Part shown: positions 25,869 to 54,588 of the stretch, piece by piece
Numbering within the stretch: the first letter of the stretch is position 1
How the letters are laid out: every line of letters starts with the position of its first letter
Assembly: GCA_026770705.1 (NCBI GenBank)
Contig: JANJGN010000007.1
Span: 69,192,001 to 69,256,000 of the forward strand
Origin: Isurus oxyrinchus
Lineage: Eukaryota
Direction of reading: 5' to 3'
Length of the DNA: 64,000 nucleotides
Program-made: the position numbers and the translations under genes
Notes under the pieces: generated by a model
Told to the model about the DNA's origin: nothing
Databases searched by the model: none
What the model saw: only the letters and a program-made list of their open reading frames with translations

Positions 25869-26048
25869 TCAATGAAAATTTGGACATTCAGGTTTAGAAT
25901 CTTGCATTGCCTGTGCCAGGTCCATCTCTCTGACAATCTTGGCATTGATGATCTTGTTCCAGTCAATTGTTGTGTGTGTAAATGGCAGCTGGCGCCGAAG
26001 ACCCTTGAGCAGAGAATCCAGCTTTTGATAATTCTCCATTAGGCCAAG
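25869..26048 (-). CDS. CAPZA-like last exon
   Basis: cag acceptor. Encodes LGLMENYQKLDSLLKGLRRQLPFTHTTIDWNKIINAKIVREMDLAQAMQDSKPECPNFH*, with the LRRQLP..IDWNK signature. Confidence 0.93.
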   Translation of the reverse strand, partial: LGLMENYQKLDSLLKGLRRQLPFTHTTIDWNKIINAKIVREMDLAQAMQDSKPECPNFH

Positions 26049-27439
26049 CTGGAGGGAGACAGAGAATGAGAGGATATTCTTTTGCTGCTCAATAGAAAAG
26101 ATTGCACTTTTATCATTGCAAAGTTTCAAGCTTTCAGCCAATTACAATGATTTTCAGTTATAATAAAAGAAACAAAGCTTCGCCTGAATATTGGAAGCCT
26201 TACAGTTTTATTTATTGAAATGCTAATGTCCCTCTTGGTGTCATTTGGAGTTTTGGATCTGTGAAGAGGAGCTGAAGATATCAAATATATGTGAATAAAC
26301 AATTCCTCTTTTTGACAAAATTATTACTTTTAAAGTTTTTTAGGCTTCTGCCTTCGTGAAGCAAAGCACTCTGGTGTTGGGCTGGAAATGATTTGTGCAT
26401 CATCAGTGGGATGATTCTACATGCAAATTATATAATCGCTTCATTCTGCACAATTTATATCACTGTGTCCTACCTTTGTGAGCAAATGAAGAAAGTCTTT
26501 GTAATAAAACAGTGACCTCTTTAAAAATGTGATCTTAAAATCTAGTCTTTAGGAGGGTATGTGCCAGTAAATAACAAAGGAGCCAAGTCTAATAAGTTAG
26601 CTTGAACTGTTCATCACCTGGACAATGCTGACTGGCTAAAATATTTGTTTAAAAAGGAAAATCTAGAAATGTGGAAATAAAACAAAGAACAGATTCGTAA
26701 AGGTACACACCTGCAACATGGTCACCTGCCTTTTCTTTTTGCAAATGCTATGTAGTTCCAGAAATTTGTGTTTTTAATACCAATTAGTTAGCTGACTCAA
26801 ATTTGACAGACAGCCATCCGGAACTACTTAATCAGATATGATGACTTCAAGTCCTTCTCAGAATGTGGGCGTCACCAGAAAGGCTCACTTTTTTTTTTGT
26901 TCATTCCTAGTTGTCCTTGAGAAGCTGTTGGTGGCCCATCTTGAACAGCTGGAGTCTATGTGGGGAAGGTACTTGTATGGTGCTGTTAAATAGAGAGTTC
27001 CAGCATTTTGACCCGATGATGATGCAAGAATGGCAATATATATCCAAGTCAGGATGGATTGAGACTTGAAGGTGAATAAGTGTATTTATGAGAGGCCCAG
27101 TAGCTTCAGTTGTGATGCCCTGTTCATTGAATCCTTAGAACACAGTTGAGCTCATACACGGAGAAGGCATGTAGGTGGAAGCCAGAGCTGTATTCTGAGA
27201 GACTTGGAGAAAGTGGGTTGGGGGGGGTGGTGGGGGGGTTGTGGTGGTGGAGAAATACTGTTGTCTTGCAGCTGAACTGATTTATTTTCTCTGATAGAAG
27301 AAAGCAATATTGCATAGGCAACAAGAGGATTTTGGTCCTTGCAGATTTTTAGATGCAGCAAAACACAAATTCTACTCTTGAATGTATATTAGAATTACAG
27401 CATAGGCATTCTACGTGACTGAGTTTTTATTAAAATAGT

Positions 27440-30170
27440 TTTTATTTATTCACGGGATGTGGGCTTCACTGGCTGGACCAGCATTTATTGCCCATCCCCA
27501 GTTGCCCTTGAGAAGGTAGTGAACTGTCTTCTTGAACCGCTGCAGTCCATGTGGTATAGGTACACCCACAGTGCTGTTTGGAAGGGAATTCCAGGATTTT
27601 GACCCAGTGACAGTGAAGGAATGACGATATATTTCCAAGTCAGGATGGTGAGTGACTTGGAGGGGAACTGGCAGGTGGTGGTGTTTCCATCTATCCGCTG
27701 CCCTTATCCTTCTAGATGGTAGTGGTTGTGGGTTTGGAAAATGCTGTTGAAGGAGCCATGGTGAATTTCTGCACTGCATCTTGTAGATAGTACACACTGC
27801 AGCTACTGTGTGTCGGTGGCAGAGGGAGTGAATGTTTGTAGATGTGTTGCCAATCAAGCGGTCTGCTTTGTCCCAGATGGTGTCAAGCTTCTTGAGCATT
27901 GTGGGAGCTGCACTCATCTAGGCAAGTGGGGATTACTCCATCACACCCCTGACTTACGCCTTGTAGATGGACAAGCTTTGGGGAGTCAGGAGGTGAATTA
28001 CTCATCACATGACTCCTAGCCTCTGACCTGCTCTTGTAGCCACAGTATTTGTATGGCTAGTCCAGTCCAGTTTCTGGTCAATGGGTAACCCCCAGAAATG
28101 GTGATAGTAGGGGATTCAGTTATAGTAATGTCGTTGAACATCAAGGGGTGCTGGCTGGATTCTCTCTTGTTGGAGATGGTCATTGTCTGACACTTCTGTG
28201 GTGTGAATGCTACAAGGTCCATTGTCCAGGTCTTGCTGCATTTGGGCATGGGCTACTTCAGTATCTGAGGAGTCATGAATGGTGTCAGACATTGTGCAAT
28301 CATCAGCAAACATCCGTACTTCTGACCCTATGATGGAAGGAAAGTCATTGATGAAGCAGTTGAAGATGATTGGGCCGAAGACACTACCCTGAGGAACTCC
28401 TGCATTGATGTCCTGGAGCTGAGATGACTGACTTCCAACAACAACAGCCATCTTCCTTTGTTCTAGGTATGATTCCAACCAGTGGAGAGTTTTCCCCCTG
28501 ATTCCCATTGACCCCAGTTTTGCTCGGGCTCCTTGATGCCACACTCGGGCAAATACGGCTTTGATGTCAAGGACAGTCACACTCACCTCACCTCAGGAGT
28601 TCAGCTCTTTTGTCCATGTTTGAAGCAAGGCTGTAATGAGGTCAGGAGCTGAGAGACCCTGGCAGAACCCAAACATGGGCATCAGTGAGCAGGCTATTGT
28701 TAAGCAAGTGCTGCTTGATAGCATTGTTGATGACCTCTTTTATTACTTTACAGATGATTGAGAGTAGACTAAACAGGCGGAAATTGGCTGGGTTGGATTT
28801 GGCCTTATTTTGTGGACAGGACATAGCTGGGTAATTTTCCACATAGCCAGGTAGATGCCAGTATTGTAGCTGTACTGGAAGAGCTTGGCTAGAGGTGCGG
28901 CAAGTTCTGGAGCACAAGTTTTCAATCCAATATTGTCAAAGTCCATAGCCTTTGCAACATCCAGTGCCTTCAGCCATTTCTTGATATCACGTGGAGTGAA
29001 TTTATTGGGTGTATTTCAGATCAAGATAGATAGGTTCTTCATTGGTAAGGGGATCAAAAGTTACGGGGAGAAGGTGGGAGAATGGGGTTGAGAAACTTCT
29101 CAGCCATGATTGAATGGCGGAGCAGACTCGATGGGTGGAATGGCCTAATTTCTGCTCCTATGTCTTATGGTCTTATGGCTGAAGACTGGCATCTGTGATG
29201 CTGGGGACCTCCGGAGATGGCCGAGATGTATCATCCCTTGGCACATCTGGCTGAAGATTGTAGGAAAGTCTTATCTTTTACACTCATGTGCTTGGCTCTT
29301 CCATCATTGAGGATGCGATATTTGTGGAGCTTCCTCCTCCAGTGAGTTGTTTAATTGTCCATCACCATTCATGACGAGATGTGGCAGGACTGCAGAACTT
29401 AGATCTGAGCTGTTGGCTGTGGGATCACTTTGCCCTGTCGATCACTTGCTGCTTATGCTGTTTGCCACGCAAGTAGTTCTGTTTTATAGCTTCACCAGGT
29501 TGCCACCTCATTTTTAGGTATGCCTGTTGCTGCTCCTGACATACCCTTCTGCATTCTTCATTGAACCAGGGTTGATCCCCTGGCTTGATGGTAATGGTAG
29601 ACTGGGGGATGTGCCGGGCCATTAGGTTACAAATTGTGTTCAACTCTGCTGCTGCTGCTGATGGCCCACAGCGCCTCATGGATGCCCAGTCTTGGGTTGA
29701 GTTGTTTGAAATCTATCCCATTTAGCACGGTGGTATTGCCACACAACAAAATGGAAAGTATCGTCACTGTGAAGGTGGGATTTTGTCTCCATGATGGCTA
29801 TGCGGTGGTCACTCCTATCAATACTGTCATGGGCAGATGCATCAGTGGCAGACAGGTTGGTGAGGATGAGGTCAAGTATGGTTTTTCCTTATTGCTTCCC
29901 TCACTACCTGCCGCAGACACACTCTAGCAGCTATGTCCTTTAGGACTCAACCAGCTCAGTGAGTAGAGGTGCTACCGAAGCACTCCTGGTTATGGACATT
30001 AAAATCCCCAACCCAGAGTACATTCTGCACCCTTGCCACCCTCAGTGCCTTCTCCAAGTAGTGATCAACATGGAGGAGTACAGATTCATCAGCTAAGGGA
30101 GCGCAGTATGCGGTAATCAGCAGGAGGTTTCTTTGCACATGTTTGACCTGATGCCATGAGACTTATCCAA
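27440..30170 (-). mobile_element. HER1-like (CR1-clade) LINE with endonuclease and RT remnants, and a nested CR1 3' tail at ~29003-29175 (+)
   Basis: LWVGDFNVH, DQPWFNEEC, LDIKAVFARVWH, GVPQGSVFGP, MFADD. The 3' tail is shared with the HE1-like SINE. Confidence 0.88.
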
Positions 30171-30784
30171 CAATTTCTTACCTAGTAGAGACTGTAATCC
30201 TAGCTCTAAACAGGCTGGCGGACTGCAGCATTTTATTAACATCACTATTGAAAGTCTTTTCACTCAGTTGGCAGTTAGCCTATGTTATAAATGTTAAATG
30301 TCTAAAACTACAAAAAAAAAGCTGCAGTGCAAAAGAGGTGGGTTGATGGCAGGGTCTGTAGAGAGGTGCATGGCAGAACACACAATTTTCAATGTATTAT
30401 TAACCCTAAGTGCCATGTAAAAACATGGTTCAAATCATACTCTTTAAGCATACTTTAAGCATATGACTAACTGTACTGAAAAAGAAAGGATCATTAAAGC
30501 ATAAATTCTAATAATGATGTATTGATAAAGATTGCCTCTATGTGCTTTTGTCACCAATAAAATGAGAGAGATGGGATGGGCAATAATTCTGTCACCTTAT
30601 TTCCTAATTACCCTCTTTCTTGATTCCATTCATCTGGGTAAAATGATGTTAACACCAGTATGAGTGCCATTAAGAAAGCTCTTTTACTTGGTGAATGTCA
30701 TATAACATAATAAACAGGTCACCAATGCATCTGAAGATCAGTTTTTGTAAATCAATATTTTGAAGGCCAAGATAAGATATGCTT

Positions 30785-30923
30785 CAAGTTCTGTCGAAGG
30801 GTCATGAGGACTTGAAACGTCAACTCTTTTCTTCTCCGCTGATGCTGCCGGACCTGCTGAGTTTTTCCAGGTAATTCTGTTTTTGTTTTGGATTTCCAGC
30901 ATCTGCAGTTTTTTTGTTTTTAT
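30785..30923 (+). mobile_element. Penelope 3' tail insertion
   Basis: Near-identical to 12755-12894. 13-bp TSD ataagatatgctt at 30772-30784 and 30924-30936. Confidence 0.9.
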
Positions 30924-30976
30924 ATAAGATATGCTTTGTTTTTTAAATGTGGCTTGACCACGGACCACCTAAATAT

Positions 30977-31093
30977 TGGCCGGAATTTTATGGCTCCGTT
31001 GTGGCTGGGACAGGGCTGAAAAATGCGAGAGCCATCCTGAACTCTATTAGCTTCGGTGGGAATATTAAATCCTACTGCTGTAAAATTCCACCC
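30977..31093. mobile_element. small Harbinger-type MITE
   Basis: Termini ggccggaatttta / taaaattccaccc. Related short elements with an aaagtccattgactttcgg core at ~40008-40099 and ~53559-53682. Confidence 0.55.
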
Positions 31094-31135
31094 ATTACGT
31101 GTGTATTAAATATACAAACACCAGCCATGAGCTAC

Positions 31136-31198
31136 CTGGAATTCAGTGTCAGCATTTTCAACCATTTTCACAAACTCTGCAGCTCCTTCGCATTCATT
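31136..31198 (-). CDS. CAPZA-like exon 9
   Basis: cag/GTAGCT, 63 nt. Encodes NECEGAAEFVKMVENADTEFQ (CAPZA1 [21 protein letters not shown]). Confidence 0.9.
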
Positions 31199-32150
31199 CT
31201 GGTGGAAGAAAGAAAAGTTAAAGATGGAAATTTAAGACAACTAGGCAACCTCCTATGGCATTGCACAGCGAGTGAGAGAATGTGAGCACACTCGTACCTG
31301 TCAGCTGTCTTTGTCTTCTGCTTCTGTCTCTTTTTTTTCTCTTTGCTGCTTCTCTCCCCTTACCTTTTTTTTTTAGTTTGCTCCTTTTGTTTGGAAGGTG
31401 ATAGATGATGTGCTATGGCGTGGCGGGATAAGGTACAACCAATAATTGCATTTGGGGTGGCGGTTGTAGGAAAAATGGGAGTCTTATATGGATCCCTTTC
31501 CATCTTCCCATGATCAGTTGTAGTTCTTCCACCTGGTACAACTCACCCCAACCACCCCCCACCCCTGTCATTTTCTCAAAGTACTTTTATTTACATAATT
31601 AACTGTTTACAAGATTCCAGAACATTAGGACAGAGCTGCTGCGCCGCTCCTAGATTCTGCTCACTCTTCTCTCTCAGACATATTATTATGACCTATCTCC
31701 TTATGCACATGCTCCGTGGCCATTATTAGAGGAGTGTTAACATTTTACTCTACACTACCTTCACATCCACCCCACTCCCACCCACGTCCCACTTTCAAAC
31801 TGTTTCTAGTGATTGAGGGTATGTTGATCTAAAATTAAATATAAGAGTTTTAGGTTTTTCTTAGTGTCATGAGCCTGTGAAATGCACTGCCAGTGTTCGC
31901 AAAGCAGCGACCACATCAATTAACACATTAGATAGGTGGTTCAAGGAAAAGTGAATAAAAGGATATGAGAACAAAGGGCACATATAGGATTAGGATTGCT
32001 GCTTGTGTGCAGAATAGTCTGGAAACTCTGATTATTCAGAGGTTCTGCTGTATGAGATAGGGTTTATAACTAGTTATATCACAGCATATCCTTCACTGAT
32101 GTGTAAAATTACATGTACACACTCTTAAGTGTAATGCACACTTTCCTTAC

Positions 32151-32222
32151 CTTTCGAGAAAGATTCTGTTTCAGATCAACATTACTGGTCAAACTGATGC
32201 TACCCTCCTCAAAGTAATGAGC
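32151..32222 (-). CDS. CAPZA-like exon 8
   Basis: cag/GTAAGG, 72 nt. Encodes AHYFEEGSISLTSNVDLKQNLSRK. Confidence 0.9.
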
Positions 32223-32819
32223 CTGAGGGAGGAAAAGTTAGAAAGAAAACTGAAAAACTTAATCTGTTTATAAGAGTAAACTTTTCCATTTCCTCTCTTT
32301 CTCTACCAATATTCCTTACGAGTTAACTTCACCAAGAGAGCAGTTGGGAAAACTGTTCTCCACATTCTGATCGATGTTAACAGTCAAGCTGCTGGCACAA
32401 AGCAAACAAGAGTGGGCTGAGTGTGACTTATCCATTGTTACAGCCATTCCCCTTGTGAGGAATTCAACACCACTTGTGTAGTGAGGCAAGGATCTGGAAC
32501 TCAGTGAACTGGGAACTGACCCTACATTCCTGCAACGTCACATTGAATTGCCACCGAGAAAATTATTTTCTCCAAATTCTCTCCCATGAGATAATGTTAT
32601 GTTAATTAAAACTGAAACAAAGAGTGATATAAAAGTTAGGTTGGGACAATTGAGGGGCAGAGAAACATTACTTTCCAAGCATCATCCACAAGATGGATAT
32701 TGGTAAAGGGAGAGCTGGAGAATCTTTTAAATCCATGATTTTGTTTTGATGAAATGGCAGTCTATCTTTCTGTATCATGATTTGTTGCTCAAGATGTATA
32801 ATCAACAGTACTGAATGAG

Positions 32820-35260
32820 TTGACCCAAGTGGATCAAATAACAGTGGGAGAGCATTTAGGGGACAGTGACCATTGTATCATTGGGGTTTAGGTTGGTCAT
32901 GGAGAAGGACAAGGAGCAATCCAGAGCAGGGATAATTAATTGGGGGAAAGCAAACTTTGATGGAATGAGAATGCGCATGAGTCAAGTGAGTAGAATCAAA
33001 TGTTGGCAGAAAAGATGCTGGCTGAACAATGGGCTACCTTCAAAGACGTAATATTACAAACAATGTCAAGGTATATTCCCTTGAAAGGGAAAGGTAGGAC
33101 AATTAAATCTACAACACCCTGGATGATGAGAGAGAGATAGAGGTGGATGAAAAGGAAGGAGTACGTGTGTGACAGATGTCTGGTTGAAAATACAATGGAG
33201 AATCAGGCTGCATATAGAAGGATCAGAGGGGAAATCAAAAAACTAATCAGAAAAGCAATGAGGGAGCATGAAAAGAGACTAGCAGCTATCATAAAAGGGA
33301 ATCCCACGATCTTTTATAAGCATATAAATAATGAAAGGGTGGTAAAAGAAAGGGTAGGGCCAATTAGGGATAAAAGAGGAGACTTGCATTTGGAGGCAGG
33401 AGAAGTAGCAGAGGTATTAAATGAGTACTTTGCATCTGTCTTTACAAAGGAAGGGGATGAGAGAGGAGGTAACTGGTACACTCGAGGAATTTATAATTAA
33501 GGAGGAGGTATTAGAAAGGCTATCTTTACTTAAAGTTGATAAGGTACCAGAACTGGATGAGATGCATCTGAGGATACTGAGGGAGGTGAGATGGAAATTT
33601 CAGAGGGACTGGTGATAATCTTCCAGTCTTTCTTAGACACAAGGGTGCTGCTGGAGGACTGGAGAATTGTGAATGTTATACGCTTGTTCAGAAAGGGGTG
33701 CAAGGATAATGCCAGCAACTACAGACCAGTTAGTTTGACTTCAATTGTAGGGAAACTTCTAGAAACTATAGTTCGGGACAAAATCAATCGTCAAGTGACA
33801 GGTGTGAGATATTTATGGAAAGCCACCATGGATTCATTATGGGGAAATCATGTTTAACTAACTTGCTGGAACTTTTTGAGGTAACAGAGAAGGTTGATAA
33901 AGGCAATGCTGTTGATGTGTATATGGATTTTCAAAAGGCATTTGATACAGTGCCACACAACAGACTTGTGAACAAAATTCTAGCTCATGGAATTAAGGGG
34001 AAAATAGGCACTTGGATAAGAAATTGGCTGAATGACAGGAAACAGTAGTGATAAATGGTTGTTTTTCAGCTTGGAGAAGGTTTGTGGTGAAGTTTCCCAG
34101 GGGTTAGTGTTGAGACTCTTGCTGCTCTTGATATATATTAATGACCTAGATTGTGGTGTGCATGCAGGATTTCAAAATTTGCTGATGATATGAAGATTGG
34201 AAGCAATGTCAATTGTGAGGAGGATAGTCTTGAATTTCAAAAGGACATAGACATATTAGTGGTTAAAGCAAAGTACAGTGGATGCTGAAAATCTAAAAGA
34301 AAAACAGAAAACATTGGAAAAGCGCAGCAAGTCTGACAGCACCTGTGGAAAGAAAAACAGTTGACATTTAGAGTCTGTTTGACCCTTCTTCAGATTGAAA
34401 AAGGGTGATATGGACATGTTGGTGGATTGGGCAGACAAATGGCAGATGAAGTTCAATGCAGAGAAGTGTGAGGTGATTCATTTTGGCAGGAAGTGTGTGG
34501 AGAGACAGTACAAAATGAAAGGAGTAACTCTCAAGGAGGTGCAAGAACAAATTGACCTTGGTGTATATGTATATAAGTCATTGAATGTGGCAGATCATGT
34601 TGAGAGAACAATTAATAAAGCATATAGTATCCTAGGCTTTATTAATAGGGGCATTGAGTACAAGGGTGAGCAGGTCATGTTAAACTTGTGTAAGACACCA
34701 GTTAGGCCTCATCTGGAGTACTGCGTCCAGTTCTGGGCTCCATACTTGAGGAAGGATGTGAAGGCATTGGAGAGAATACAGAGGAGATTCACAAGAATGA
34801 TCCAAGGATGAACAACTGTAGCTATGAGGATAGATTGGAGAGGTTGGGTCTGTTTTCCTTGGAGAAAAGAAGGCTGAAAGGAGACTTGTTAGAGGTGTTC
34901 AAGATCCTAAAGGGCATGGACAGGGTAAATAGCGAGAACCTGTTCCCACTCAAGAATACATCAAGAGCGAGAGGGAACAGATTCGAAATAATGGGCAAAA
35001 AGGAGTATAAGTGATGTGAGGAAAATTTTTTTCACCCAGAGGGTGGTTGGAGCTTGGAACGAACTTGCTGAAAGGGTGGTGGAGGCAGGGTTGATTGAGG
35101 TATTCAAAGGGGAATTGGATTGCTATCTGAAAAGGAAGAATGCACAAGGCTACGGGGACAAGATAGAGAGTGGGATTAGGTAGAACGCTCTTTCAGCGAG
35201 ACAGTGCAGACTCGATGGGCTGAATAGCCTCCTTCTGCACTGTCAAGATTCAGTGATTCT
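32820..35260 (+). mobile_element. CR1 LINE ORF2 remnant with a nested Penelope tail (~34264-34405, -)
   Basis: NYRPVSLTSIVGK, YMDFQKAFDTVPH, RPHLEYCVQFWAP, and 3' tail. Confidence 0.92.
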
Positions 35261-35289
35261 GTCTAATTTCCTTAGTTTAACCCATAGAG

Positions 35290-35490
35290 TTCAGGTATCT
35301 TTGTGGTAAATCCATGCTGTACTCCACTAATCACATCCTGCCAATTTGAGAATCTGCCCAAGATCACTACTTTCTGCCTCCAGCACAGACAATTTCCTAT
35401 CCAGATCAATAATGGGCCTTCAATTCCATGAGCTTCAACTTTAGCTAACATTCCCTTATGCGCAGCTGTATCAAATGGCTCTGAAAGTTT
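35290..35490 (-). mobile_element. small CR1 RT fragment
   Basis: PFDTAAHKGMLAKVEAHGIEG...VISGVQHG. Confidence 0.65.
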
Positions 35491-40693: not shown

Positions 40694-40772
40694 CTGCACC
40701 TTAACTGCGCCTGAGATTTCAGCATTTGGTGGGGAGAACACAAGTTTCCATTCGGATTTCCAAAAGCCATTC
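40694..40772 (-). CDS. CAPZA-like exon 7
   Basis: tag/GTAAGT, 79 nt. Encodes NGFWKSEWKLVFSPPNAEISGAVKVQ. Confidence 0.93.
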
Positions 40773-43512: not shown

Positions 43513-43592
43513 CAGAACTCATTGCGCTGATATTTGTGAGATTCAATGCAGGCAGTGATAACTTTCTGATTGCCATAGGTTTTCCCATATAC
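43513..43592 (-). CDS. CAPZA-like exon 6
   Basis: cag/GTAAGT, 80 nt. Encodes VYGKTYGNQKVITACIESHKYQRNEFW. Confidence 0.93.
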
Positions 43593-44294: not shown

Positions 44295-44735
44295 AGGTGT
44301 GTCAGCCATGACTCAGTTGGTAGCATCTCTTGCCTCTGAGTCACAAGGTTCCATTTTCAGGTCCCACTCCAGGCCTTGAGCACAAAAATCAAAGCTGATA
44401 CTCTGGATCAAGACAACACTCCAGTGCAGTACTGAGGGAGTGCTGCACTGTTGGAGGCACTGTCTTTTGGATGAAATGTTAAACCGAGCCCCCCTCTTCC
44501 CTTCCTTGGATGGATGTACATAATCCCATGGCATCTTTTTGAATCGACATCAAGAGAAAAACAGATTATGTGGTCATTGTTGCATTGCTGTTCATGGGAG
44601 TTTGCTGTATGCAAATTAGATGCTGTCTTTCCTGTATTGCAATATTGATTACACTTCAAAATTACTTCATTGGCTGTAAAACGCTTTGAGACATCTGCTG
44701 GTTGTGAAAAGTGCCATATAAATGCAAGGTTTTTT
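44295..44735 (+). mobile_element. tRNA-derived DeuSINE (SacSINE1-like)
   Basis: A box tgactcagttgg, degenerate B box, Deu-like core gtgcagtactgagggagtgctgcactg...gttaaaccgagcccc, and L2-type tail gccatataaatgcaag. Confidence 0.7.
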
Positions 44736-44885
44736 TTCTTCAGGCTATAACCTGAGTACTGCTACATTCCTTGTCGTAGCATATTTTATTGGTACCACAT
44801 AGCATTGTTTTCCAGGCTATACACACACACAGACAAGCATCAGGGTATGGTAATGGGAACAGTGTCGTTTCTGAAGGCTACTTAC

Positions 44886-45092
44886 AGAGCAGTTTCCATC
44901 TGGGTAATGCTTCTCCACATAACTAGTGAGTGCACTTTCTATAGCTCCTCTCCAGCTCTCCATGGAAATATCTAATTCATACGGTTGGATGTCAGAAACA
45001 TTTTTGTTCAAGTGATCAAACTTAAAAGAAACCTTCTGCTTTGGATCCAGAAAATATCCATTCCCAAGGTCACCATGTTCAGTGATTAGCAC
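44886..45092 (-). CDS. CAPZA-like exon 5
   Basis: tag/GTAAGT, 207 nt. Encodes [28 protein letters not shown]...[25 protein letters not shown]. Confidence 0.95.
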
Positions 45093-45189
45093 CTAAAGAA
45101 TAAACAGATCATGAGTTCACTGAACAACTGATTTTCCAGTATCATAAGGTCATTTGTATTGCTTAGCTATTTTTGAGTGTCAATAACTT

Positions 45190-45725
45190 ATTTTTTATTC
45201 ATTCACGGGATGTGGACTTCGATGGCTGGGCCAGCATTTATTGCCCATCCCTAGTTGCCCTTGAGAAGGTGGTGGTGATCTGCCTTCTTGAACTGCTGCA
45301 GTCCATGTAGTGTGGGTACACCCATAGTGCTGTTAGGAAGGAAGTTCCAGGACTTTGACCCAGCGACAGTAAAGGAATGGTGATATATTTCCAAGTCAGG
45401 ATAGTGAGTGACTTGTTGGGAACTTCCAGGTGGTGATGTTCCCATCTATCTGCTGCCCTTGTCCTTCTAGATGTTGGCTTTGGGAGGTGCTGTCTAAGGA
45501 GCCTTGGTGAATTCCTGCAGTGCATCTTGTGGATGGTACACACTGCTGCTACTGTGCGTCGGTGATGGAGGGAGTGAATGTTTGTGGATGTGGTGCCAAT
45601 CAAGTGGCTGCTTTGTCCTGGATGGTGTCAAGCTTCTTGAGTGTTGTGGGAGCTGCATTCAAAGTGGGGAGTATTCCATCACATTCCTCACTTGTGCCTT
45701 GTAGATGGTATACAGCTTTGGGGAT
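45190..45725 (-). mobile_element. HER1-like LINE 3' fragment
   Basis: Same family as 41555-42485. Confidence 0.88.
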
Positions 45726-46187
45726 TAAGAACATCTTCCCTTGTTCCCATTTCACATGGATCATTTAAAAATGATGCAGATAGGTTAACCTGGAGCACGA
45801 ATAAAAACTAGCAGCTTCAAAAGCTGTTACCTCAAACACAGCCCTGTACAAAAATCTAACATGCAACTGCACTTAAATTACAGTGAGACATGGGTTTTTT
45901 TTTTTGAATGAAGCCACTTGAGCCCACAACACCCTATCAATTGTGTTCTTCAGATAAAATACATTTAAGTACAAAAGTATATCAATGGCCAATTTAGACA
46001 TTTTGAAAGGAGATACAAGTACTGATGGTGCAAGATTTATTTCCTAGACCTCTGATGAGTTTCAGAAGACATCATTTTGAGAAATCTTTTAGCATATTTG
46101 ATCTATCAATATCTAATTTCTGTTGTATTTTGATAAAAAAAATTATTCCTGCAATGATCAAACTATTTTCTTTAGGGCAGCTCATAT

Positions 46188-46635
46188 TAACATTTGTAAA
46201 TGAAGTCCAGGAATGTCTTTATATTTGCAAAGGGGCGTTGGGAAAGTGTTGATATTTTCAGGGGGTGCTTTAGGGTGTGTTGATATTTAAATGGGGGCCC
46301 TTGGATGTTAATATCTCCAGGGAGTCTCCAAGAATGTGTTCATATTTGCAGGGATCTCTGAGAATGTGTAAATATGTCCAAGGGGCTCAAAGTGTGTTTG
46401 GAGGGAGACTTTGAGGTGTGTTAATATTTAAATTGAATCTCTGAGGGTGTGTTAATTGTTACCAAAGTCCCTGAATATGTGCTAATATTTTCAAGGGGTT
46501 CTCTGAATTAATTAATAATTTGTAGGAAAACACCAAGTGTTTGTTAATACAAGGGGTTCCATGAGAATTAATTTACGTCTGTAGGGGTTCCCTAAGAATG
46601 TGTTAATATTTGTTCATATTTTTAGGAAGTCCCAG
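46188..46635 (+). repeat. degenerate ~30-bp minisatellite
   Basis: About 14 units of consensus gaatgtgttaatatttgcaggggtctct. Confidence 0.75.
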
Positions 46636-47124
46636 CCTAGGTAAAGGTTTGAAACCTATTGATTTTTGATCACAAAATGTTATTCCTGCCATCTTGTGGC
46701 AGAATGTCAAAACAACAGTGGCTGGTTAAAATTGTGTATCCCAGGTATACCCTTCACCTGCAGCTGTGTTTTTGTGTTGCTTACAGGAATTTCATTAGCC
46801 CATTGAGAGTTTAAAGAAGTGGGTCAAAGTAATGGTGGTGCAACTTCACTAACCCCACCCTCCTACCCACAATGATCATCTTAACAGATCAACTGACCAC
46901 AGCAAATTTATTCAGCAGTGCAGTCCAGTTCTCAATCTCTGCTGAAATAGTCCCATGGTGAACCATCTAGAGTAGCTGAGTCCGAGGTGGATACAGTTAT
47001 GTTGCTGAGAAGACTAGCATTAGCCAAATTTCAGATTTGGTTATTAGCTGCGACCCTAGTTATGTCAGTGGATGGGAAATTCTGGCCACTGCACATAAAT
47101 GGAAGTCTTGTTGTATCAGGCATA

Positions 47125-47127
<3 letters not shown>

Positions 47128-47206
<79 letters not shown>
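47128..47206 (+). repeat. (TG)n microsatellite
   Basis: About 39 perfect TG units. Confidence 0.97.
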
Positions 47207-47209
<3 letters not shown>

Positions 47210-47497
47210 TGTGGATAGGGGGAATGGGGGCGAATGGAACACCTGCCCATCCCCCCCCCCATAATATAATTAGGCTTAATCCTATCGGGTAATCAAACGC
47301 TATCCCAGATTTCAGGAGGGCTAATTTTACAAAAATTGCTAAAGATCTAGTAAAAGTTTGCTGTGGGCAACCCTACCAGATAGGAAACCAAGTATTGAGT
47401 ACAGATGGATTCCATTTAGGGCCATTTTCAAACAAAATAAACATCAACCTCTGTCTTAGTGAAAAAATCAAGGAAATGATTAGAGAGAAAAAGGTAT

Positions 47498-47712
47498 TGG
47501 ATTGAATTCCCTCCTAAATCTCTTTGCCTCTCTCCTGCCTTCTCTTCCCTTAAGATGCTCCTTAAAGCCTCTGTCTTTGGCCAAGATTTTGGTCATCTGC
47601 CCTAATATGTCCTTTTGCGACTAGGTGACAAATTTTGCTTGAAAATGCTTCTGTGACGCGCCTTGGACCATTTTACTACATTAAAGACGCTATATAAATG
47701 CAGGTGGTTGTT
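47498..47712 (+). mobile_element. L2-type LINE 3' end
   Basis: ttccctcctaaatctct...gacgcgccttggacc...aaagacgctatataaatgcag. The tail resembles the DeuSINE tail. Confidence 0.6.
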
Positions 47713-48063
47713 CTAGAAGCCTTTTTGGGAGTGAGATTTCACTTTCTACTTCCACCATTTTCCTCTCCCCTCTCCCTTACTGGATCTTGCTATCTTGCTG
47801 CCCCACTCCAGCTTGAATGATAGGTGGGCATCAGGCAGGGACAGGGAGACTGGTTTTAGGTGTCTGTCTAAAGAAAGGGGTATATTTAAACAAAGTCAGT
47901 TTATTGGGCCAGGAAAAGAGACAATATAAAAAGTGAGAGGCAACAAAACAAAAACTGAAAAACTGAGCAGATCTTTAGGTTATTTAGTTGGGCTTTAACT
48001 TTCAATCTCTTTAGTTAAAACAGAATGGTAAATAAAGATTAATCTTGATCACTGTCCACCTAC

Positions 48064-48127
48064 CTTTCCCTTGTGTTCCTTTACTGCAACAGGAATGAAT
48101 TGTTCCAGGTTATACTTTGCAGTGATT
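48064..48127 (-). CDS. CAPZA-like exon 4
   Basis: cag/GTAGGT, 64 nt. Encodes ITAKYNLEQFIPVAVKEHKGK (CAPZA1 [21 protein letters not shown]). Confidence 0.88.
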
Positions 48128-49149
48128 CTGTAAAATAACACACCATCAGCGCACTGACTCTTATCTGAACCACAAAGGGCTTCTTTGGGTTACGATTGAG
48201 ACATAGGGATTGTGACCTTTGGTGAATGAGAAAGTGTCAGATTCACCCCATCAGTCAATCACTGCCAGAAACATCACGCTTCGGAGTTAAATCTAATTCC
48301 CAGTATTGATCCATTTCCCACAACATATCCAGGGACTTTATCATTTAACCTATTGTTCAATTTTGGCATATGTCAAATATCACCTTATATAAATCACTTC
48401 AAAATTTAACACTACTGCGGATTGCTTGTACGTTTCTTATTACAATTTTCTTCCCCTCTTGAAATCATTCATTTGTGCTGGAGTGGTGCCTCAGAGTCCT
48501 TGGCAGCCCTCTGGTGCCTCACTTGTATGTGAGCCAGACAGTGAATGCTCCCAGGATAATTGACCACCGAACACAAAACATCATCAGACTTCATCAGACA
48601 TCCATATGCAAATACTTTACTGCACTTGTTATTGTACAATGATTGAGCTGGGAACTCTGATTTTCTCCCATCTTAACCTTTCACAATAATAACCATTCTA
48701 AGGCCAATTGCAGCTCCATAGCGAGAGCAGTCATAAAATGGGAAGGAAACACGTTGCCATCTCTGAAGTTAACAGCGTGGCTGGACCCTCACAGTCCCTC
48801 CAAGAATGTCAACTGGGCCAGATGCAGCCACTAAGATGCTATAGTTAACTGTCAGACTCTCATAGGTCCAATCTGTGAGAGGTCACTGGCCATACACATC
48901 TCAAGAGCCCTTGACTGAGCAACAACAACCTTCCATCTTTATGCTAAATTCACTGGAGAATCACCTTGTAGAAGCACTAGGCTAGGTAAGAAGGCACTCA
49001 AGACAGGCAGCAGGGTCTCAGAGCTGGGTGATAATTAGGATTAGGTCTTTGTATAAACATGAAAATGGTAAACCTTTTTGAAATCTTTCTGTGCACAGGG
49101 GTGCTTCTGAAGTAGTTGATGGCTCTGCAATTTTAGACGGCAGAAGCCT

Positions 49150-49732
49150 TAGAAGTCTTGTTACAACTGTACAGGGTGTTGATGAAACCACACCTCCCCG
49201 TACGTAAGAAAGGATTTACTGGCATTGGAGGCAATTCAAAAGAGATTCACTAGGCTGATTCCTGGGATGAAGGGGTTGACTTATCAAGAATGGCTAAACA
49301 GGGTAGGCATTTATTCAATAGAGTTTAGAAGAATGAGAGGTGATCTTATTGAAATGTACAAGATTCTGAGGGAGCTTGACAGTTTAGATGTTGAGAAGAT
49401 GTTTCCACTAGTGAGGGAATCTCGAATTAGGGGACATAGTTGCAAAATAAGGGGACATTCGTTTAAAACTGAGATGTGAAGGAATATTCTTCTCTGAGAG
49501 TAGTGAATGTCTGGAATTATTTACTGCAGAGAGTTGTGAAGGCTAGATCACTGAAAGTATTTAAAGAGGAGGTAGATAGATTTTTAAAATATCAGGGAGT
49601 TGAGGGTTATGAAGAGCTGACACAAAAGAGGAGTTGAGGCCTGGGGCATATCAGCCAAGGTCTTATTGAATGACGGGGAAGGCTTGAGGGGCCAAATGGC
49701 CTACCCCTGCTCCTATTTCTTATGTTCTTATG
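49150..49732 (+). mobile_element. CR1 LINE 3' fragment
   Basis: EAIQKRFTRLIPG...RRMRGDLIE, ending in ttcttatgttcttatg. Confidence 0.9.
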
Positions 49733-49929
49733 TATACCAATGTTGGTCTTTGGATGAATACAATTTATTTGAGGGTAGAAGGACCGGGATACATGACTGT
49801 TAATAGAAGGGAATGCTAAAGTGCTAATGTTGAAGCCAAAGAGCTTTAGCTGTAGTAAATATTGGAGCCCTCTGTATCCTGAGTTATTCTCTATGTCATT
49901 GGTGTCATCTCCCTCATTGCATTGAACAC

Positions 49930-50340
49930 CTTCCAGTGGTGACTCCATGGGTTGTCTTTATTTCAGAGCAAAATTATGCCGAGTCCAGCACATCACAATC
50001 ATAGTGCATTCTCTTTCTAGGTTATTTTACAGATCTCTTCAGGCATTGGAATCATTGTTTGAGGACTCCAATACTATACTCAGTGAGGGCTGTAGTGGAG
50101 CCATAAATCTGACTGCACTGCAGTTCAGCTGCTGAGTATAGATTCCTGAAAGGAACCATGAACCAATTGTGTAGGAGATTGGCCTTATGTTCAAAAAACC
50201 AGTTGCTGTGCAGGGCCAAGGAGTGATAAATGGAAGATTGTTGCAAGACCTGCATGATGCTCTGCTGGTGAGCACACTGCAGTTATATTGGAAGCCGATG
50301 TGATTCATGAAGACAGAAAGCGTGTTTGCAGGACACCACA
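49930..50340 (-). mobile_element. Harbinger transposase relic
   Basis: FMNHIGF and TTALTEYSIGVLKQ*FQCL resemble HARBI1-type NRKGFHS and IERTIGLLKxRFRCL motifs. Heavily decayed. Confidence 0.5.
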
Positions 50341-51244
50341 GGATGACTTGGGCACAGTCAGTGAGGTTTTGGTCTGAGGAGAAGCCAGCAGCCTATGCAA
50401 ATCCCAGAGTCCTATCATTCCAGATACCCATGGTGAAAAGATGACACAGGTGCTTGCTCCTGTTTTAAAAAAAAGCATCAGTCACCTACTTGATGTAGGC
50501 ACAGACTGACTGATGTTGCTTGATGTACCCATGGCAGGCAGGAAGGAGCAAGAGACAAAAAGGCTGAGGACCACAGTGACTTAGACTGCCACAGGTAGTG
50601 CAGTGCCAACTGTGGGTGGCAGATATTGTTATAGGAGGTGATGCAATGCTCAAACCGCCTGTCAAGAGAAGCGTAGCCTCTTTACACATTTATCCTCAGA
50701 GAAGGCATGTGATTTATCTACTGCCAGTCTAATGACTAGGTAATTTTGGTAACCATTTTTTTTCTATAGGGAGTTATCTAGCTGATGCATAGCTTCCTAC
50801 ACTCCAACGGTGTTCCAGAAAGTCTGTATAGAGGTGCTGTCTGGTAAGTATAAGTTATCTGGCAGTCTGGAGATGTTAATTTGGTTATGGATTGCCATTT
50901 GCTAAATTGATGTAATTGGTCCATATTTTAAACCTTATTTGAATGTCAGTTGAGGATGGGTGAGGAGGCCTTTAACAAGAGTGGACAATGGGGGCTTCTA
51001 TCAGAAATGAAACAGGGTTCATATGACATTGCAGATGGGACGTTGTTGGAAAGTACTGTAATCTATACATTATTGCATCAACTTGTGCAGATTAAGGGGG
51101 GGATAAATCACTTTGGATATACTATTAAATCTATGAGATCTATTCCTTGTGTCCTTGTCTATCTTTAATATAATTTATAGAATAAATGTAGACAACTGCA
51201 TAAAAAAACAAAATACAGGAGGTATTATTCCAACTCAGGCTCAC

Positions 51245-51296
51245 CGTTCTATGTTCTCACATATCAGCTCATCATCATTTAGCAAAGCTCGCATAT
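51245..51296 (-). CDS. CAPZA-like exon 3
   Basis: cag/GTGAGC, 52 nt. Encodes DMRALLNDDELICENIER (CAPZA1 DVRLLLNNDNLLREGAAH). Confidence 0.88.
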
Positions 51297-51879
51297 CTGC
51301 AAAAACCAAGAGAAGAATTCCTAAACTATACAAAGTATTATGTCAACAGTCATCCAAGTGGCTCAGGCCTGAATTTAATCCTCAAGATAGATTTTATTCA
51401 CTGGCACCAATGAGAGTCTTCAACGTCAGGGTTTATACCACAATGCCATTCGGACCTTTGCAAATGGAGCTATGAGAAAAACAGAATGAACTGTAGGATA
51501 GACACATTGGGTTGCCTTTGTCAGAATTTGAGCAGAAGAATTTGTGGCTAGAACCCAGAGTAAAGTCAAATCTCTGTCCCCTGATGGATCACCAGCTTCA
51601 GGCATACACACAAGTAACCACTGAATAGAAAAGTTGGCAACTTCACTGATTGATGCAGCATTTGCATTGCAGTTCCCAATTTGACTGATAAGTGGTGCTA
51701 ATTTTTAGCTTGAAAGATAACATTTATTCAGTGGGGAACAGAGTACATTTTGAGCTCATTGATATGTGGGATGGCATTCTGGCAGAATTAAACAATCATC
51801 AACTTTTGACAACATGGGAAGAATCTTACCACCTTAGTCCTTGCTGCAATGGCAGGACCATTCTCAGGTCTAGAATCCA

Positions 51880-52020
51880 ACCCTCTACACAGCGCGGCTG
51901 ACAGTTGCTCTTTATCAGAGCAAGAAAAGGCAACCTCTCCAGCCAAGCAGATGTGGAGGGAAGTGACTGAGGAAGTCCACAGCAGGCATGTGCTCCCTCC
52001 AACCTGGAGACAGTGCACTG
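51880..52020 (+). mobile_element. Harbinger Myb/SANT-like ORF relic
   Basis: KQMWREVTEEVHSRHVLPPTWRQC resembles the trihelix W..V...V......RTW.QC motif. Confidence 0.5.
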
Positions 52021-54524
52021 ATCCAGGACCTCAAGATGAGTGACATAACAATTTCAAGTGCCAAACCTCTCACTCTCATTGTCCTAGCACTCCCCTGCAC
52101 AGCACTCCTCAGAACAGCACACCTTGCAGTTCCATATGTTCCCCTCTCTGCAGGCACCATACATCCCCATCTGAACAGCCAACACTCACATTCATCTCCA
52201 GCATTGCACTCTCGGATCCATTCTTCCTATACCCTCCATAAATGGTGTCTTTCTGTCCTCTGCACACAAACCATCATGAACACTCATAGCTCTCTGCTTT
52301 ATCTCCTTGCAGCAGAAGGGAGCAGACAATTTGGCCAGAGGCAGTGGTGCAGGGGTTGGATGGGTGGTCCTCAATCACTGCCACCTTATCTGCTTGTAGC
52401 AGTGCATTCCCAACTGATCCACTGGGAAGGAAGTTTAATTCCAGGAGGCCTCAGATGTCAGTAGTGACCTGCCGTGAGAACCTCAGCCTCCAGACATCTC
52501 AAGAGAGCTGATCCTCTGCATGTAGACCCTGTGTTGGCTGTGTTGCCTCCATCCAGCTGAAACTTTATCCATCTTCTCTACCCCGTGGAGGGGTATATGG
52601 TTGAGACGAAGGCTGCTGGCGTTGTTAGCGGTTGCTTGACCTCTGCTCTTCCTCTTCAGCAGAGTTGGGAGGTGGAACAGCAGAAGCTGCTTCCATGCCT
52701 TGGTGAAGTTGGGAAACAGAGAAGTGCAGCTGAAGGTAGGTAGAGTGTTAAACAGGAGAAGTGCCTTCCAAGAATTGGACAATCACCTATCAAGCAGTGA
52801 AAGTGTACTCTGAGAGACAAAGTACCTTGAGGAGAAGTCTCTTAATGACTGTGGCTGCAGCTCTTCAGTGTAACTGATCAAAATGTTTCCAGCTTGTCAG
52901 TTTCACTGAAGTTCTTCCCACTGTGCATTCGCCTTGATAAGCCTTGAGAGTTTCTGACACACTGGGGAAGAGGTTTCTATGGCTGGAAAATCCAGGGTTC
53001 AGGGCTGAAGCACCTCAAAATTACCTTCTTAACAACCTCAACACTTAATTACTCACTTGACAGATGCAAGAGGGTTCCCCATTTTCCTCAATGCCACCCC
53101 AGGAAAAGCTGGAAGAGGGCAGGATCAAGATCAGATCCTGATCCAACATCAATTTCTGGCACTTTCTTACCTCCTGCTCATCCCCAAACCCACATCCCAT
53201 CAGATGGAAAATTTCTGCCCTGAGTGTCATTATTAAACACTCTGAGCTCATGTACAATCCAAGCTATAAGTGCTGTGAAGCTCTCTCTACTCACCCAAAA
53301 AATGTATCTTAAAAGGACACAGCTGATCAGCTGGCATAGTTTTCATCATGACAATGTCAGGTGCAAGGGATTTTTGTTGTCCATGGTGTTATTGCATCTG
53401 AGCGTTTATCAAACAAATAAAAATTAGACATCTTTGAGGATCAAAGGCGGAACTCCCCAGTTAGACAAAGTGGGACACAACTATTCCCATACCAGCCACC
53501 TCTGAATGGGACGGACAATTGAATAGTTGAGGCTATCTAATATAAAGACACTCTTGAGAGGCTGGAATTTTCTAGCCCCATCGCAATGGGAACCGCCGTG
53601 GGAGATTTGGTGGCCCAAAAGTCCATTGACTTTCGGTGGGACTGGACGATCCCAGTGCCGTGTGCGGCCATAAAATCCTGAGTGTAATTTTCACCTTCAC
53701 TGCCTGGCTGATCCCCCATCTGTCATTGAAGCCACTGGATTTTCACCCCTCTGCCGAATCACTGTTGAGGTTGTGAAGGTGCCTGTTAATGCCAGAGAGG
53801 GATGAGACTTTTCTTACCAGCTGGAATTGCAATAAAACACAAGGCTATGAGGTGAAATTATAATGGTCAAATGTTATTCGTTTCAGAGGGACATTCTCTA
53901 TATTGCAATTTCTCTGGCCTCTATTTCTTTTACTGCTGACTCCCCTAGGAGTCCAAGATTCATGAATTGGCCTTTTTATAATATATCTGGGGTAGCAAAA
54001 ATAGCTTAGAGGTACTCCAGGTCTTGGAGCACAAACTCAGTGTGTATTTATGTCCTTCATCTGCAACAACCTGAATGGCAATAGCACTCTGGCCCTTAAT
54101 TGATAAGAAAAATACTTGTAAAGAAAGTTCAGTCCCAGTAGCAGAGTGCAATTCCAAATCTCAATGAGTTCAGCCGACAGAGATTTTGACACTTACCTAG
54201 ACATTGTTGGTCTGCAGGTACAGGGGTCATTTTATTAAAAAATCTCGAGTTATTTCCTTCTGGAGTACTTTGGATGAAAAGGACTTCTTTTTTAACAATA
54301 GACATGTAGTCTAGAGAGTTGGAAATTGAAGAGCTATGGGATTGTAGAAGAGAGTAAACCTCATTTGTGTCTTTATCCCCCTTCAATTATCTAAAATTTA
54401 CATCCAACTTTAACCTTTCTATCAAAGCATTCTATGCTATTCAAATATAAAATCACCATTTTTGTTGTATGCCACACTGTGCTGGTGCAGACCTCTGAAA
54501 TTTTTGACAAGTATGGATACTCAC

Positions 54525-54588
54525 CATTGACGACTTCGCTGAACTCGCCAGGAGGGGCCTGCAAGAGAATGCTGTTCAGGATGTTAAC
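54525..54588 (-). CDS. F-actin capping protein alpha-like, exon 2 equivalent
   Basis: tag/GTGAGT, 64 nt. Encodes VNILNSILLQAPPGEFSEVVN with the CAPZA APPGEF motif. Exon 1 was not found. Confidence 0.92.

What the first reader, a model, noticed from the sequence alone, without database searches (positions are those of the whole stretch)
25869..54588. Intron-containing CAPZA paralog with CAPZA3-like residues: candidate parent lineage of the amniote CAPZA3 retrogene
Seen: nine phase-compatible GT-AG exons (64, 52, 64, 207, 80, 79, 72, 63, 180 nt) splice into an open 286-codon frame. Known: CAPZA1/2 are extremely conserved in vertebrates, while CAPZA3 is intronless, testis-specific and considered a retrogene. 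The exon junctions fall where I recall them in CAPZA1/2, yet roughly half the residues differ. Many differences match recalled human CAPZA3 rather than CAPZA1: LLQAPPGEF, DIQ, GNC, WNGxWKS, VQAHxF, DLKxxL, terminal FQ, and a C-terminal extension. Inference: this is a third, spliced CAPZA lineage kept in sharks, possibly the source from which CAPZA3 retroposed.
Basis: partly seen in the sequence, partly recalled or inferred. Interest (0 to 1): 0.8.

Follow-up and report, generated by a model that had tools for sequence, protein, structure and literature searches.

The report
Spliced shark relative of CAPZA3
This shark genome holds an intact, ten-exon, spliced third gene for the alpha subunit of actin capping protein, and its family tree indicates that the intronless sperm gene CAPZA3 of mammals likely descends from this old lineage rather than from the two ordinary genes.

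Summary
Observation confirmed. The nine GT-AG exons give 286 open codons; a tenth exon (39 nt, with the ATG) lies 1.7 kb past the window, giving 299 aa. One contig from one public run joins exons 2-7 at the predicted junctions. The genome has separate CAPZA1-type and CAPZA2-type genes with identical exon sizes (47% identity to each). Sharks, rays and chimaera carry the gene, labelled 'CAPZA2-like' or 'CAPZA1-like'. Under a site-heterogeneous model it heads a clade (100/99) with divergent sturgeon, amphibian and reptile genes and amniote CAPZA3. Placement with CAPZA1, CAPZA2 or both is rejected (AU p 0.002 or lower), as is CAPZA3 with CAPZA2. It lies next to a PET-LIM gene, APEH and caveolins, mirroring the CAPZA2 block, with no phospholipase C nearby, so it is likely a genome-duplication paralog. 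Testis bias, dN/dS, and the introns and positions of the bony-vertebrate genes were not tested. The scan's index showed no earlier finding of it.

The parts
54589..64000 (-). Window part of intron 1 (11,145 nt in all); coding exon 1 (39 nt, ATG, 13 codons) lies beyond the window end at G000:C7:69,257,734-69,257,772 (locus L004; extended coordinates 65,734-65,772)
   Evidence: exon 1 matches the N-terminus of the catshark ortholog P0002 and has the size of exon 1 of both canonical genes
54525..54588 (-). Coding exon 2 (64 nt)
   Evidence: spliced to exon 3 in the run X1 contig
51245..51296 (-). Coding exon 3 (52 nt)
48064..48127 (-). Coding exon 4 (64 nt)
44886..45092 (-). Coding exon 5 (207 nt)
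43513..43592 (-). Coding exon 6 (80 nt)
40694..40772 (-). Coding exon 7 (79 nt)
   Evidence: its first 53 nt are in the spliced contig
32151..32222 (-). Coding exon 8 (72 nt)
   Evidence: not covered by a read test
31136..31198 (-). Coding exon 9 (63 nt)
   Evidence: not covered by a read test
25869..26048 (-). Coding exon 10 (180 nt to TGA): alpha-tentacle region, one-residue deletion, C-terminal extension beyond the canonical end
25731..25810 (-). Two AATAAA signals beginning at 25,810 and 25,736, just after the stop (candidate poly(A) signals)
   Evidence: sequence only

Best explanation
The window holds nine of the ten coding exons of an intact, spliced third CAPZA gene that sharks, rays and chimaera keep beside CAPZA1 and CAPZA2, which likely arose in the early vertebrate genome duplications and whose lineage likely gave rise to amniote CAPZA3. 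SHOWN: exon structure, splicing of exons 2-7, separate canonical genes, neighbouring gene families, tree placement. INFERRED history: a duplicated block (PET-LIM gene, caveolins, CAPZA) left this copy on the segment that also carries APEH. The copy then evolved fast. In bony vertebrates it duplicated again: turtles and lizards have two genes of the clade, and one copy became CAPZA3, which in mouse is intronless and back-to-back with PLC-zeta. An mRNA-derived copy of this lineage, not of CAPZA2, is the simplest source. Because the shark gene has all nine introns, the fast divergence began before intron loss. INFERRED function: the protein would pair with the beta subunit and cap actin barbed ends. 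It keeps K256, R259, R260 and W271 (canonical numbering) but has H266, T268, A277 and lacks residue 251, so capping is predicted to be weaker or differently tuned. A germ-cell role like CAPZA3's is my best guess (about 55%) and is untested.
For: Exons and frame; spliced contig. Only three CAPZA loci in this genome. The other two rebuild as 286-aa canonical proteins with the same exon sizes: one is head-to-head with an ST7-family gene on C9, the other lies in the order PET-LIM gene, two caveolins, MET, CAPZA, ST7-family gene on C20. The window gene has its own PET-LIM gene about 190 kb upstream on the same strand (62% identical to the C20 one), a caveolin pair 6 Mb away and APEH next to it. Orthologs: 10 of 10 hits are sharks or rays; chimaera at 59.6%. 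Tree (LG+C20+F+G4 PMSF, 49 rows): clade of cartilaginous fish, sturgeon, amphibians, a second sauropsid gene and CAPZA3 at 100/99, stem 0.30, cartilaginous fish first and sturgeon next, as in the species tree; repeated with 33 rows. AU tests reject shark gene+CAPZA1 (p 0.00018), +CAPZA2 (0.00028) and +both (0.0019), and CAPZA3+CAPZA2 (6e-6). Simulations of separate origins under C60, analysed with LG+C20+G4, reached the observed gain of 12.7 log units in 0 of 20 (maximum 4.0). ESM Atlas best cluster is named alpha-3 (0.96, against 0.95 for general alpha clusters; weak). PMC8429771 reports W271R and Y277V as weakening barbed-end binding.
Against: Every member of the clade is a long branch. Under plain LG+G4 the gain of 31.0 is reached by 50 of 100 C60 and 4 of 100 LG+C20 simulations of separate origins, so simple-model support is worthless and only the mixture result counts (20 replicates, 16 rows). 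The simulations do not model parallel loss of the same constraints. By raw identity the protein is closer to CAPZA1/2 (47-49%) than to CAPZA3 (32-38%). Of 171 sites conserved in the canonical set the shark genes differ at 46; the CAPZA3 majority has the shark residue at 10 of these and the canonical residue at 9. The base of the tree is unresolved: CAPZA1 is not one clade, and one long outgroup row fell inside CAPZA2. No MET paralog was found beside the gene; the Sema hit at C7:89.7 Mb is a plexin. Intron status and position of the sturgeon, amphibian and sauropsid genes are unknown. The transcript evidence is one contig, depth 4.5, one sample, RNA only by guess, tissue unknown.
Confidence: 0.75

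Rival explanations
1. The gene is a real third paralog from the genome duplications, but it is unrelated to CAPZA3. Both lineages lost the same constraints independently and are pulled together by long-branch attraction, with CAPZA3 derived from CAPZA1 or CAPZA2.
For: All clade members are long branches; LG+G4 support is reproducible by artefact in 50 of 100 simulations; only 10 of 46 changed sites are shared with the CAPZA3 majority; PMC3428356 lists Capza2 (35% identity, best Ensembl paralog) as putative parent of mouse Capza3.
Against: Mixture-model tree 100/99 with species-tree order inside the clade; AU rejections; 0 of 20 simulations reach the mixture-model gain; non-conservative shared changes such as H23Q are fixed in all groups.
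Confidence: 0.13
2. Same clade, but no retroposition from a parent elsewhere: the gene moved as DNA with its introns to the PLC-zeta neighbourhood and lost them later, in place, perhaps only in mammals, so reptile or bird CAPZA3 may still be spliced.
For: Two palaeognath database models depart from their relatives exactly at the position of the exon 1/2 junction (printout); a lizard CAPZA3 has annotated isoforms.
Against: Those departures can be gene-prediction errors; other truncated models break away from junction positions; newt isoforms vary only upstream of the methionine, as a single-exon frame would; mouse Capza3 is intronless (PMC7138945). This rival changes only the last step of the best explanation.
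Confidence: 0.08
3. A cartilaginous-fish-specific duplicate of CAPZA1 or CAPZA2 that moved and diverged quickly, as the 'CAPZA2-like' database label implies.
For: RefSeq names; higher raw identity to the canonical genes; a one-residue deletion at 251 found only in cartilaginous fish.
Against: AU rejects both placements; it sits in a block paralogous to the CAPZA2 block, with its own PET-LIM and caveolin paralogs; equal distance to both canonical genes.
Confidence: 0.03
4. A decaying pseudogene.
For: Faster change than its paralogs: 59.6% to the chimaera ortholog against 75.5% and 88.5% for the canonical genes; substitutions in the actin-binding tentacle.
Against: Open 299-codon frame, nine GT-AG introns, spliced contig, 76-88% identity to skate and catshark orthologs.
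Confidence: 0.01

Closest known systems
CAPZA1 and CAPZA2 (F-actin capping protein alpha-1/-2; Pfam PF01267; PDB 1IZN chain A), including this genome's copies on C9 and C20
   Same: Full-length alignment almost without gaps (E 1.5e-95 to 1IZN_A for the catshark ortholog); identical sizes and phases of exons 1-9; K256, R259, R260 and W271 kept.
   Different: Only 47% identical; residue 251 deleted; H266, T268, A277; 299 aa against 286; a different chromosome segment; faster rate.
CAPZA3 (CP-alpha3, Gsg3) of amniotes
   Same: Same well-supported clade; shared changes at canonical-conserved sites 23, 42, 163, 174, 192, 199, 236, 239, 243 and 250; loss of K268 and Y277.
   Different: Ten coding exons against an intronless gene in mouse; no phospholipase C domain found near it, whereas mammalian CAPZA3 is back-to-back with PLC-zeta (PMC7138945); 32-38% identity; testis restriction not tested.
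Unnamed 'CAPZA1-like/CAPZA2-like' database models of sharks, rays, chimaera, sturgeons, newts, frogs, turtles and lizards (e.g. XP_072328263.1, XP_042195645.1, XP_041112160.1, XP_078540211.1, XP_048337609.1)
   Same: The cartilaginous-fish models are direct orthologs (60-88% identity); the others belong to the same clade.
   Different: Their names assign them to CAPZA1/2, which the tests here reject; several shark models have wrong first or last exons.

Membership tests
F-actin capping protein alpha subunit (PF01267) | Full-length match to the family profile and to solved alpha subunits | tested here: met
   Full-length orthologs score 284-287 bits against a cut-off of 24.2; window exon 10 E 4.8e-9; 1IZN_A E 1.5e-95
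F-actin capping protein alpha subunit (PF01267) | Alpha-tentacle residues that bind the barbed end | tested here: inconclusive
   K256, R259, R260, W271 kept; R266H, K268T, Y277A changed. W271 and Y277 from PMC8429771; the role of the basic residues is recalled
F-actin capping protein alpha subunit (PF01267) | Heterodimer with the beta subunit and capping activity | not tested
   No complex job sent; needs an assay
CAPZA1 or CAPZA2 ortholog | Nests within the CAPZA1 or CAPZA2 clade | tested here: not met
   AU p 0.00018, 0.00028 and 0.0019
CAPZA1 or CAPZA2 ortholog | Lies next to an ST7-family gene | tested here: not met
   All 25 ST7 matches lie on C9 or C20, beside the other two CAPZA genes (that search used a stricter first look)
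CAPZA3 lineage in the wide sense | One clade with amniote CAPZA3 to the exclusion of CAPZA1/2 | tested here: met
   100/99; 0 of 20 null simulations; long-branch caveat
CAPZA3 in the strict, mammalian sense | Intronless coding region | tested here: not met
   Nine introns of 952-11,145 nt
CAPZA3 in the strict, mammalian sense | Back-to-back with PLC-zeta | tested here: not met
   None of 46 PLC-X and 25 PLC-Y matches lies near C7:69.2 Mb; the nearest on C7 is at 158.7 Mb. A very divergent PLC could be missed
CAPZA3 in the strict, mammalian sense | One-to-one sister of CAPZA3 | tested here: not met
   Exclusive shark+CAPZA3 clade rejected, p 0.0011
CAPZA3 in the strict, mammalian sense | Testis- and spermatid-specific expression | not testable with these tools
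   Run tissue is not given
Paralog from the vertebrate genome duplications | Lies in a block paralogous to its sisters' blocks | tested here: met
   PET-LIM gene upstream on the same strand at both C7 and C20; caveolin pairs on both; MET has no adjacent counterpart found at C7
Paralog from the vertebrate genome duplications | Duplication dated after the split from invertebrate chordates and before the gnathostome radiation | tested here: inconclusive
   Present in cartilaginous and bony fishes, but the base of the tree is open and no named amphioxus or tunicate row was available

The most novel reading that the evidence does not exclude
Jawed vertebrates have an unrecognised third CAPZA lineage from the genome duplications that was already a fast-evolving, germ-cell-tuned capping subunit with all its introns more than 400 million years ago. 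Mammalian CAPZA3 is an 'orphan' retrocopy whose spliced parent survives in sharks (and perhaps as the second turtle/lizard gene) but is not CAPZA1 or CAPZA2. The sperm-specific capping heterodimer would then predate both the retroposition and the pairing with PLC-zeta.
Probability: 0.45. Interest if true: 0.65.

Novelty: new member of a known kind. Interest (0 to 1): 0.5.

Why it matters
CAPZA3 is a mammalian sperm gene listed as a retrogene with Capza2 as putative parent (PMC3428356), at only 35% identity. A spliced member of its own lineage explains that gap: much of the divergence is older than the loss of introns. It gives an intermediate for tracing how the actin-binding tentacle changed, shows a likely fourth CAPZA gene in turtles and lizards, and corrects 'CAPZA2-like' labels in many genomes. 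It makes one question directly testable: did germ-cell specialisation come before or after the move next to PLC-zeta? It is a gene-family history result, not a new kind of system.

Tried and rejected
PLC-zeta neighbourhood: no PLC-X or PLC-Y match near the gene. Exon 1 inside the window: no convincing candidate; it lies beyond the end. A MET paralog beside the gene: nothing in translated comparisons of 464 kb (which held only part of the C20 block and not the MET Sema exon); the C7:89.7 Mb Sema hit is a plexin. Run search: no holder on record as RNA; X1 is RNA by guess. The first laying of reads was swamped by repeats. Runs X8, X9, X10 and X12 showed no listed exon joints, which is not evidence of silence. 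AlphaFold2 of the catshark ortholog with a 7-row alignment gave pLDDT 53.5, pTM 0.46; not used. ESM Atlas gave no usable hit for the PET exon, so the name LMCD1 is recalled, not shown. dN/dS could not be computed: no coding DNA of orthologs was available. LG+G4 likelihood support was rejected as artefact-prone. No complex job was sent: a textbook pair would pass by likeness. PMC2688473 was not held. The scan's own index gave no related finding.
Full report
OBSERVATION. A six-frame motif scan placed capping-protein motifs on the minus strand. Listing AG...GT segments of the stated lengths with an open frame recovered the nine exons: 54588-54525, 51296-51245, 48127-48064, 45092-44886, 43592-43513, 40772-40694, 32222-32151, 31198-31136, 26048-25869. 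They give 861 nt, 286 codons and TGA. The window is G000:C7:69,192,001-69,256,000 of a 4.98-Gb genome. In the neighbouring stretch, a 39-nt ATG...GT exon at extended position 65,772-65,734 matches the catshark ortholog's N-terminus (score 59, next best 21), so the gene has ten coding exons and 299 aa. Introns are 952-11,145 nt and two AATAAA signals follow the stop. Exon 5 is 97% identical to a white-shark model, so the source is a shark close to that species; I did not identify it further.

TRANSCRIPT. The run search listed 14 runs, 7 holding the exon-5 words, none on record as RNA. At 97% likeness, one 532-nt contig of run X1 (RNA by guess, depth 4.5) joins exons 2-3-4-5-6-7 across five introns with GT..AG ends (2 runs of one sample laid). 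The run shares 0.67 of the words, so it is probably a relative. Tissue is unknown, and exons 1 and 8-10 were not tested. The genome search found no processed copy that could mimic the joints.

PARALOGS IN THIS GENOME. Exon 5 and the Pfam profile find three CAPZA loci: C7, C20 and C9. Both others rebuild as 286-aa canonical proteins with exons of 39, 64, 52, 64, 207, 80, 79, 72, 63 and 141 nt. They are 71.3% identical to each other and 47.7% and 47.4% to the window protein. The C20 gene lies in the order PET-LIM gene (34.93 Mb), two caveolins (34.76, 34.73), MET (34.54), CAPZA (34.4), ST7 family (34.19-34.13), all on one strand. From my own knowledge this is the human TES-CAV2-CAV1-MET-CAPZA2-ST7 order. 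The C9 gene is head-to-head with the other ST7-family gene, as I recall for ST7L and CAPZA1.

NEIGHBOURHOOD OF THE WINDOW GENE. Exon prediction in 464 kb gave 119 candidates; 99 were scanned with Pfam (the CAPZA exons, obvious repeats and some others were left out). Clear hits were peptidase S9 at two places and a PET domain (E 8.9e-29) with a LIM exon at C7:69.435-69.449 Mb, upstream on the same strand. The PET exon's only other match is the C20 gene, at 62%. I recognise it as LMCD1, but that name is recalled. The S9 exon in the window matches acylamino-acid-releasing enzyme (APEH; E 9.5e-20). A caveolin pair lies at C7:75.4-75.5 Mb. I recall APEH, LMCD1 and CAV3 on human 3p. So both the C20 gene and the window gene have a PET-LIM paralog upstream and caveolins on the same contig, the pattern expected of whole-genome duplicates. 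No MET paralog was found adjacent, and the Sema hit at 89.7 Mb is a plexin. None of 46 PLC-X and 25 PLC-Y matches is near any of the three CAPZA loci.

RELATIVES. Exon 5 retrieved 10 proteins among 14 candidates, all from sharks and rays and all named 'alpha-2-like'. A profile added bamboo shark and a chimaera protein (best 120 of 403 listed). Identities to the window protein are 88.3% (catshark), 83.0% (sevengill), 75.8% (skate) and 59.6% (chimaera), against 75.5% and 88.5% for the canonical genes to chimaera. The representative search (best 150 of 1,623) and name look-ups gave divergent proteins from sturgeons and paddlefish, newts, frogs, and two separate groups in turtles and lizards: CAPZA3 and a second gene. 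(best 120 of 405) added CAPZA3 of turtles, crocodile, squamates, birds, monotremes and eutherians. Pogona and Elgaria each have both genes. No teleost, gar, coelacanth, lungfish, bird or mammal member of the second group appeared, but the lists were cut, so absence is not shown.

PHYLOGENY. With 49 of 69 assembled rows (redundant, partial and frameshifted rows left out), LG+C20+F+G4 PMSF gave a clade of 28 rows at 100/99, stem 0.30: cartilaginous fish (100/99), then sturgeon (93/87), then a tetrapod group (100/99) holding newts, frogs, the second sauropsid gene and CAPZA3 (99/97). The relation of this clade to CAPZA1, CAPZA2 and lamprey is open, CAPZA1 is not one clade, and one long outgroup row fell into CAPZA2. 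With 33 rows (the longest and some redundant ones dropped) the clade stayed at 100/99, and the newt joined CAPZA3 at 98/86. AU tests on the 33 rows reject shark+CAPZA1 (p 0.00018), shark+CAPZA2 (0.00028) and shark+both (0.0019), and CAPZA3+CAPZA2 (6e-6), shark+sturgeon+second sauropsid gene (0.0017) and shark+CAPZA3 alone (0.0011). Long-branch control on 16 rows: joining the two divergent groups gains 31.0 log units under LG+G4 and 12.7 under LG+C20+G4. Data simulated with separate origins reached 31 under LG+G4 in 4 of 100 (LG+C20) and 50 of 100 (C60) cases, so that figure means nothing. Under LG+C20+G4, 0 of 20 C60 simulations reached 12.7 (range -8.4 to 4.0; only 20 of the 100 were run). 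Parallel relaxation at the same sites is not modelled and remains the main doubt.

All eight patterns occur in the window protein and in eutherian CAPZA3 P0330, which clusters with mouse Gsg3. But LLQ and DLKxxL are missing from the catshark, skate and chimaera orthologs, and GNC from skate and chimaera. Column by column, 171 sites are conserved in the canonical set; the cartilaginous-fish majority differs at 46; the CAPZA3 majority shares the new residue at 10, keeps the canonical one at 9, and the second sauropsid gene shares it at 16. C-terminal extensions are absent in sturgeon, newt and gecko and did not look alike by eye in the printed sequences, so I give them no weight.

MECHANISM. The catshark ortholog aligns end to end with solved alpha subunits, so a heterodimer with the beta subunit that caps barbed ends is the expected function (established knowledge; not tested). 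In canonical numbering the window protein keeps K256, R259, R260 and W271 and has H266, T268, A277 and a deletion at 251. K268 and Y277 are changed in every clade member examined except sturgeon (11 of 12 rows). PMC8429771 says the alpha tentacle wedges into the penultimate actin and that W271R and Y277V weaken binding, so I predict weaker or retuned capping. A germ-cell role is inferred only from CAPZA3.

WHAT IS KNOWN. Papers seen: PMC7138945 (passages and section 4: mouse gene intronless, haploid germ-cell specific, back-to-back with PLC-zeta); PMC3428356 (passages with Table 1: Capza2, 35%, as putative parent); PMC8429771 (passages); PMC8870547, PMC4558521, PMC4212906 and PMC6173279 (passages; nothing on this lineage). 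No supplements were read. Nine full-text searches (CAPZA3 with intronless; with PLCZ1 and synteny; with retrotranspos; with ohnolog; with chicken and retrogene; capping protein, alpha3, shark, phylogen; PLCzeta, CAPZA, pufferfish, medaka; capping protein, vertebrate, whole genome duplication, CAPZA2, CAPZA3; capza, shark, testis) listed nothing that by title or abstract describes a spliced CAPZA3-lineage gene. Most listed papers were not opened, subscription papers are not in the library, and public gene trees may already show the clade. The gene itself is already predicted in RefSeq under a misleading name.

VERDICT. A real, conserved, spliced third CAPZA gene; very likely a genome-duplication paralog (about 0.9) and likely the cartilaginous-fish member of the lineage that includes CAPZA3 (about 0.8). 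The retroposition step, its date and the expression pattern are untested. New member of a known kind; interest 0.5.

Noticed in passing
window 367-24,766 (+), continuing upstream to about G000:C7:69,157,700; sister copy at C7:69,050,500-69,130,400 (-): The 3' exons of an APEH (acylamino-acid-releasing enzyme) gene lie in the window, tail-to-tail with the CAPZA gene about 1.1 kb from its stop. It is one of two diverged, head-to-head APEH copies (exons about 45-90% identical); both show the GGSHGG serine motif and the last catalytic exons.
   Followed up: partly
Proteins P0126, P0287, P0288, P0290, P0291, P0294 (lizards) and P0245, P0266 (turtles, partial): Turtles and lizards carry a further divergent CAPZA gene besides CAPZA1, CAPZA2 and CAPZA3, labelled alpha-1-like or alpha-2-like; the five rows put in the tree form their own clade (100/99). 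Its introns and position are unknown.
   Followed up: partly
L004, extended window coordinates 67,433-67,290, 69,251-69,117 and 66,150-66,073 (-): Upstream open segments that white-shark and smooth-hound database models (P0001, P0006) use in place of the 39-nt first exon; they may be prediction errors or alternative first exons.
   Followed up: no
window 9,219-12,116: Two copies of a reverse-transcriptase-like repeat frame face in opposite directions about 600 nt apart (open frames at 11,088-12,116 + and 10,478-9,219 - begin with the same residues), in an intron of the APEH copy.
   Followed up: no
G000:C9:155,923,978-155,969,360 (-): The CAPZA1-type gene of elasmobranchs is itself faster than usual (stem 0.18; 75.5% to chimaera against 88.5% for CAPZA2) and does not group with bony-vertebrate CAPZA1.
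   Followed up: no
G000:C1403:121,222-121,548 and 84,340-84,531; C3045; C3827: Extra caveolin matches on small contigs, one inside a 1,362-codon open frame.
   Followed up: no
G000:C23:50.05-50.07 Mb (-) and 50.49-50.55 Mb (+): Two phospholipase C genes with similar exon patterns lie 0.4 Mb apart in opposite directions; which PLC here is PLC-zeta was not determined.
   Followed up: no
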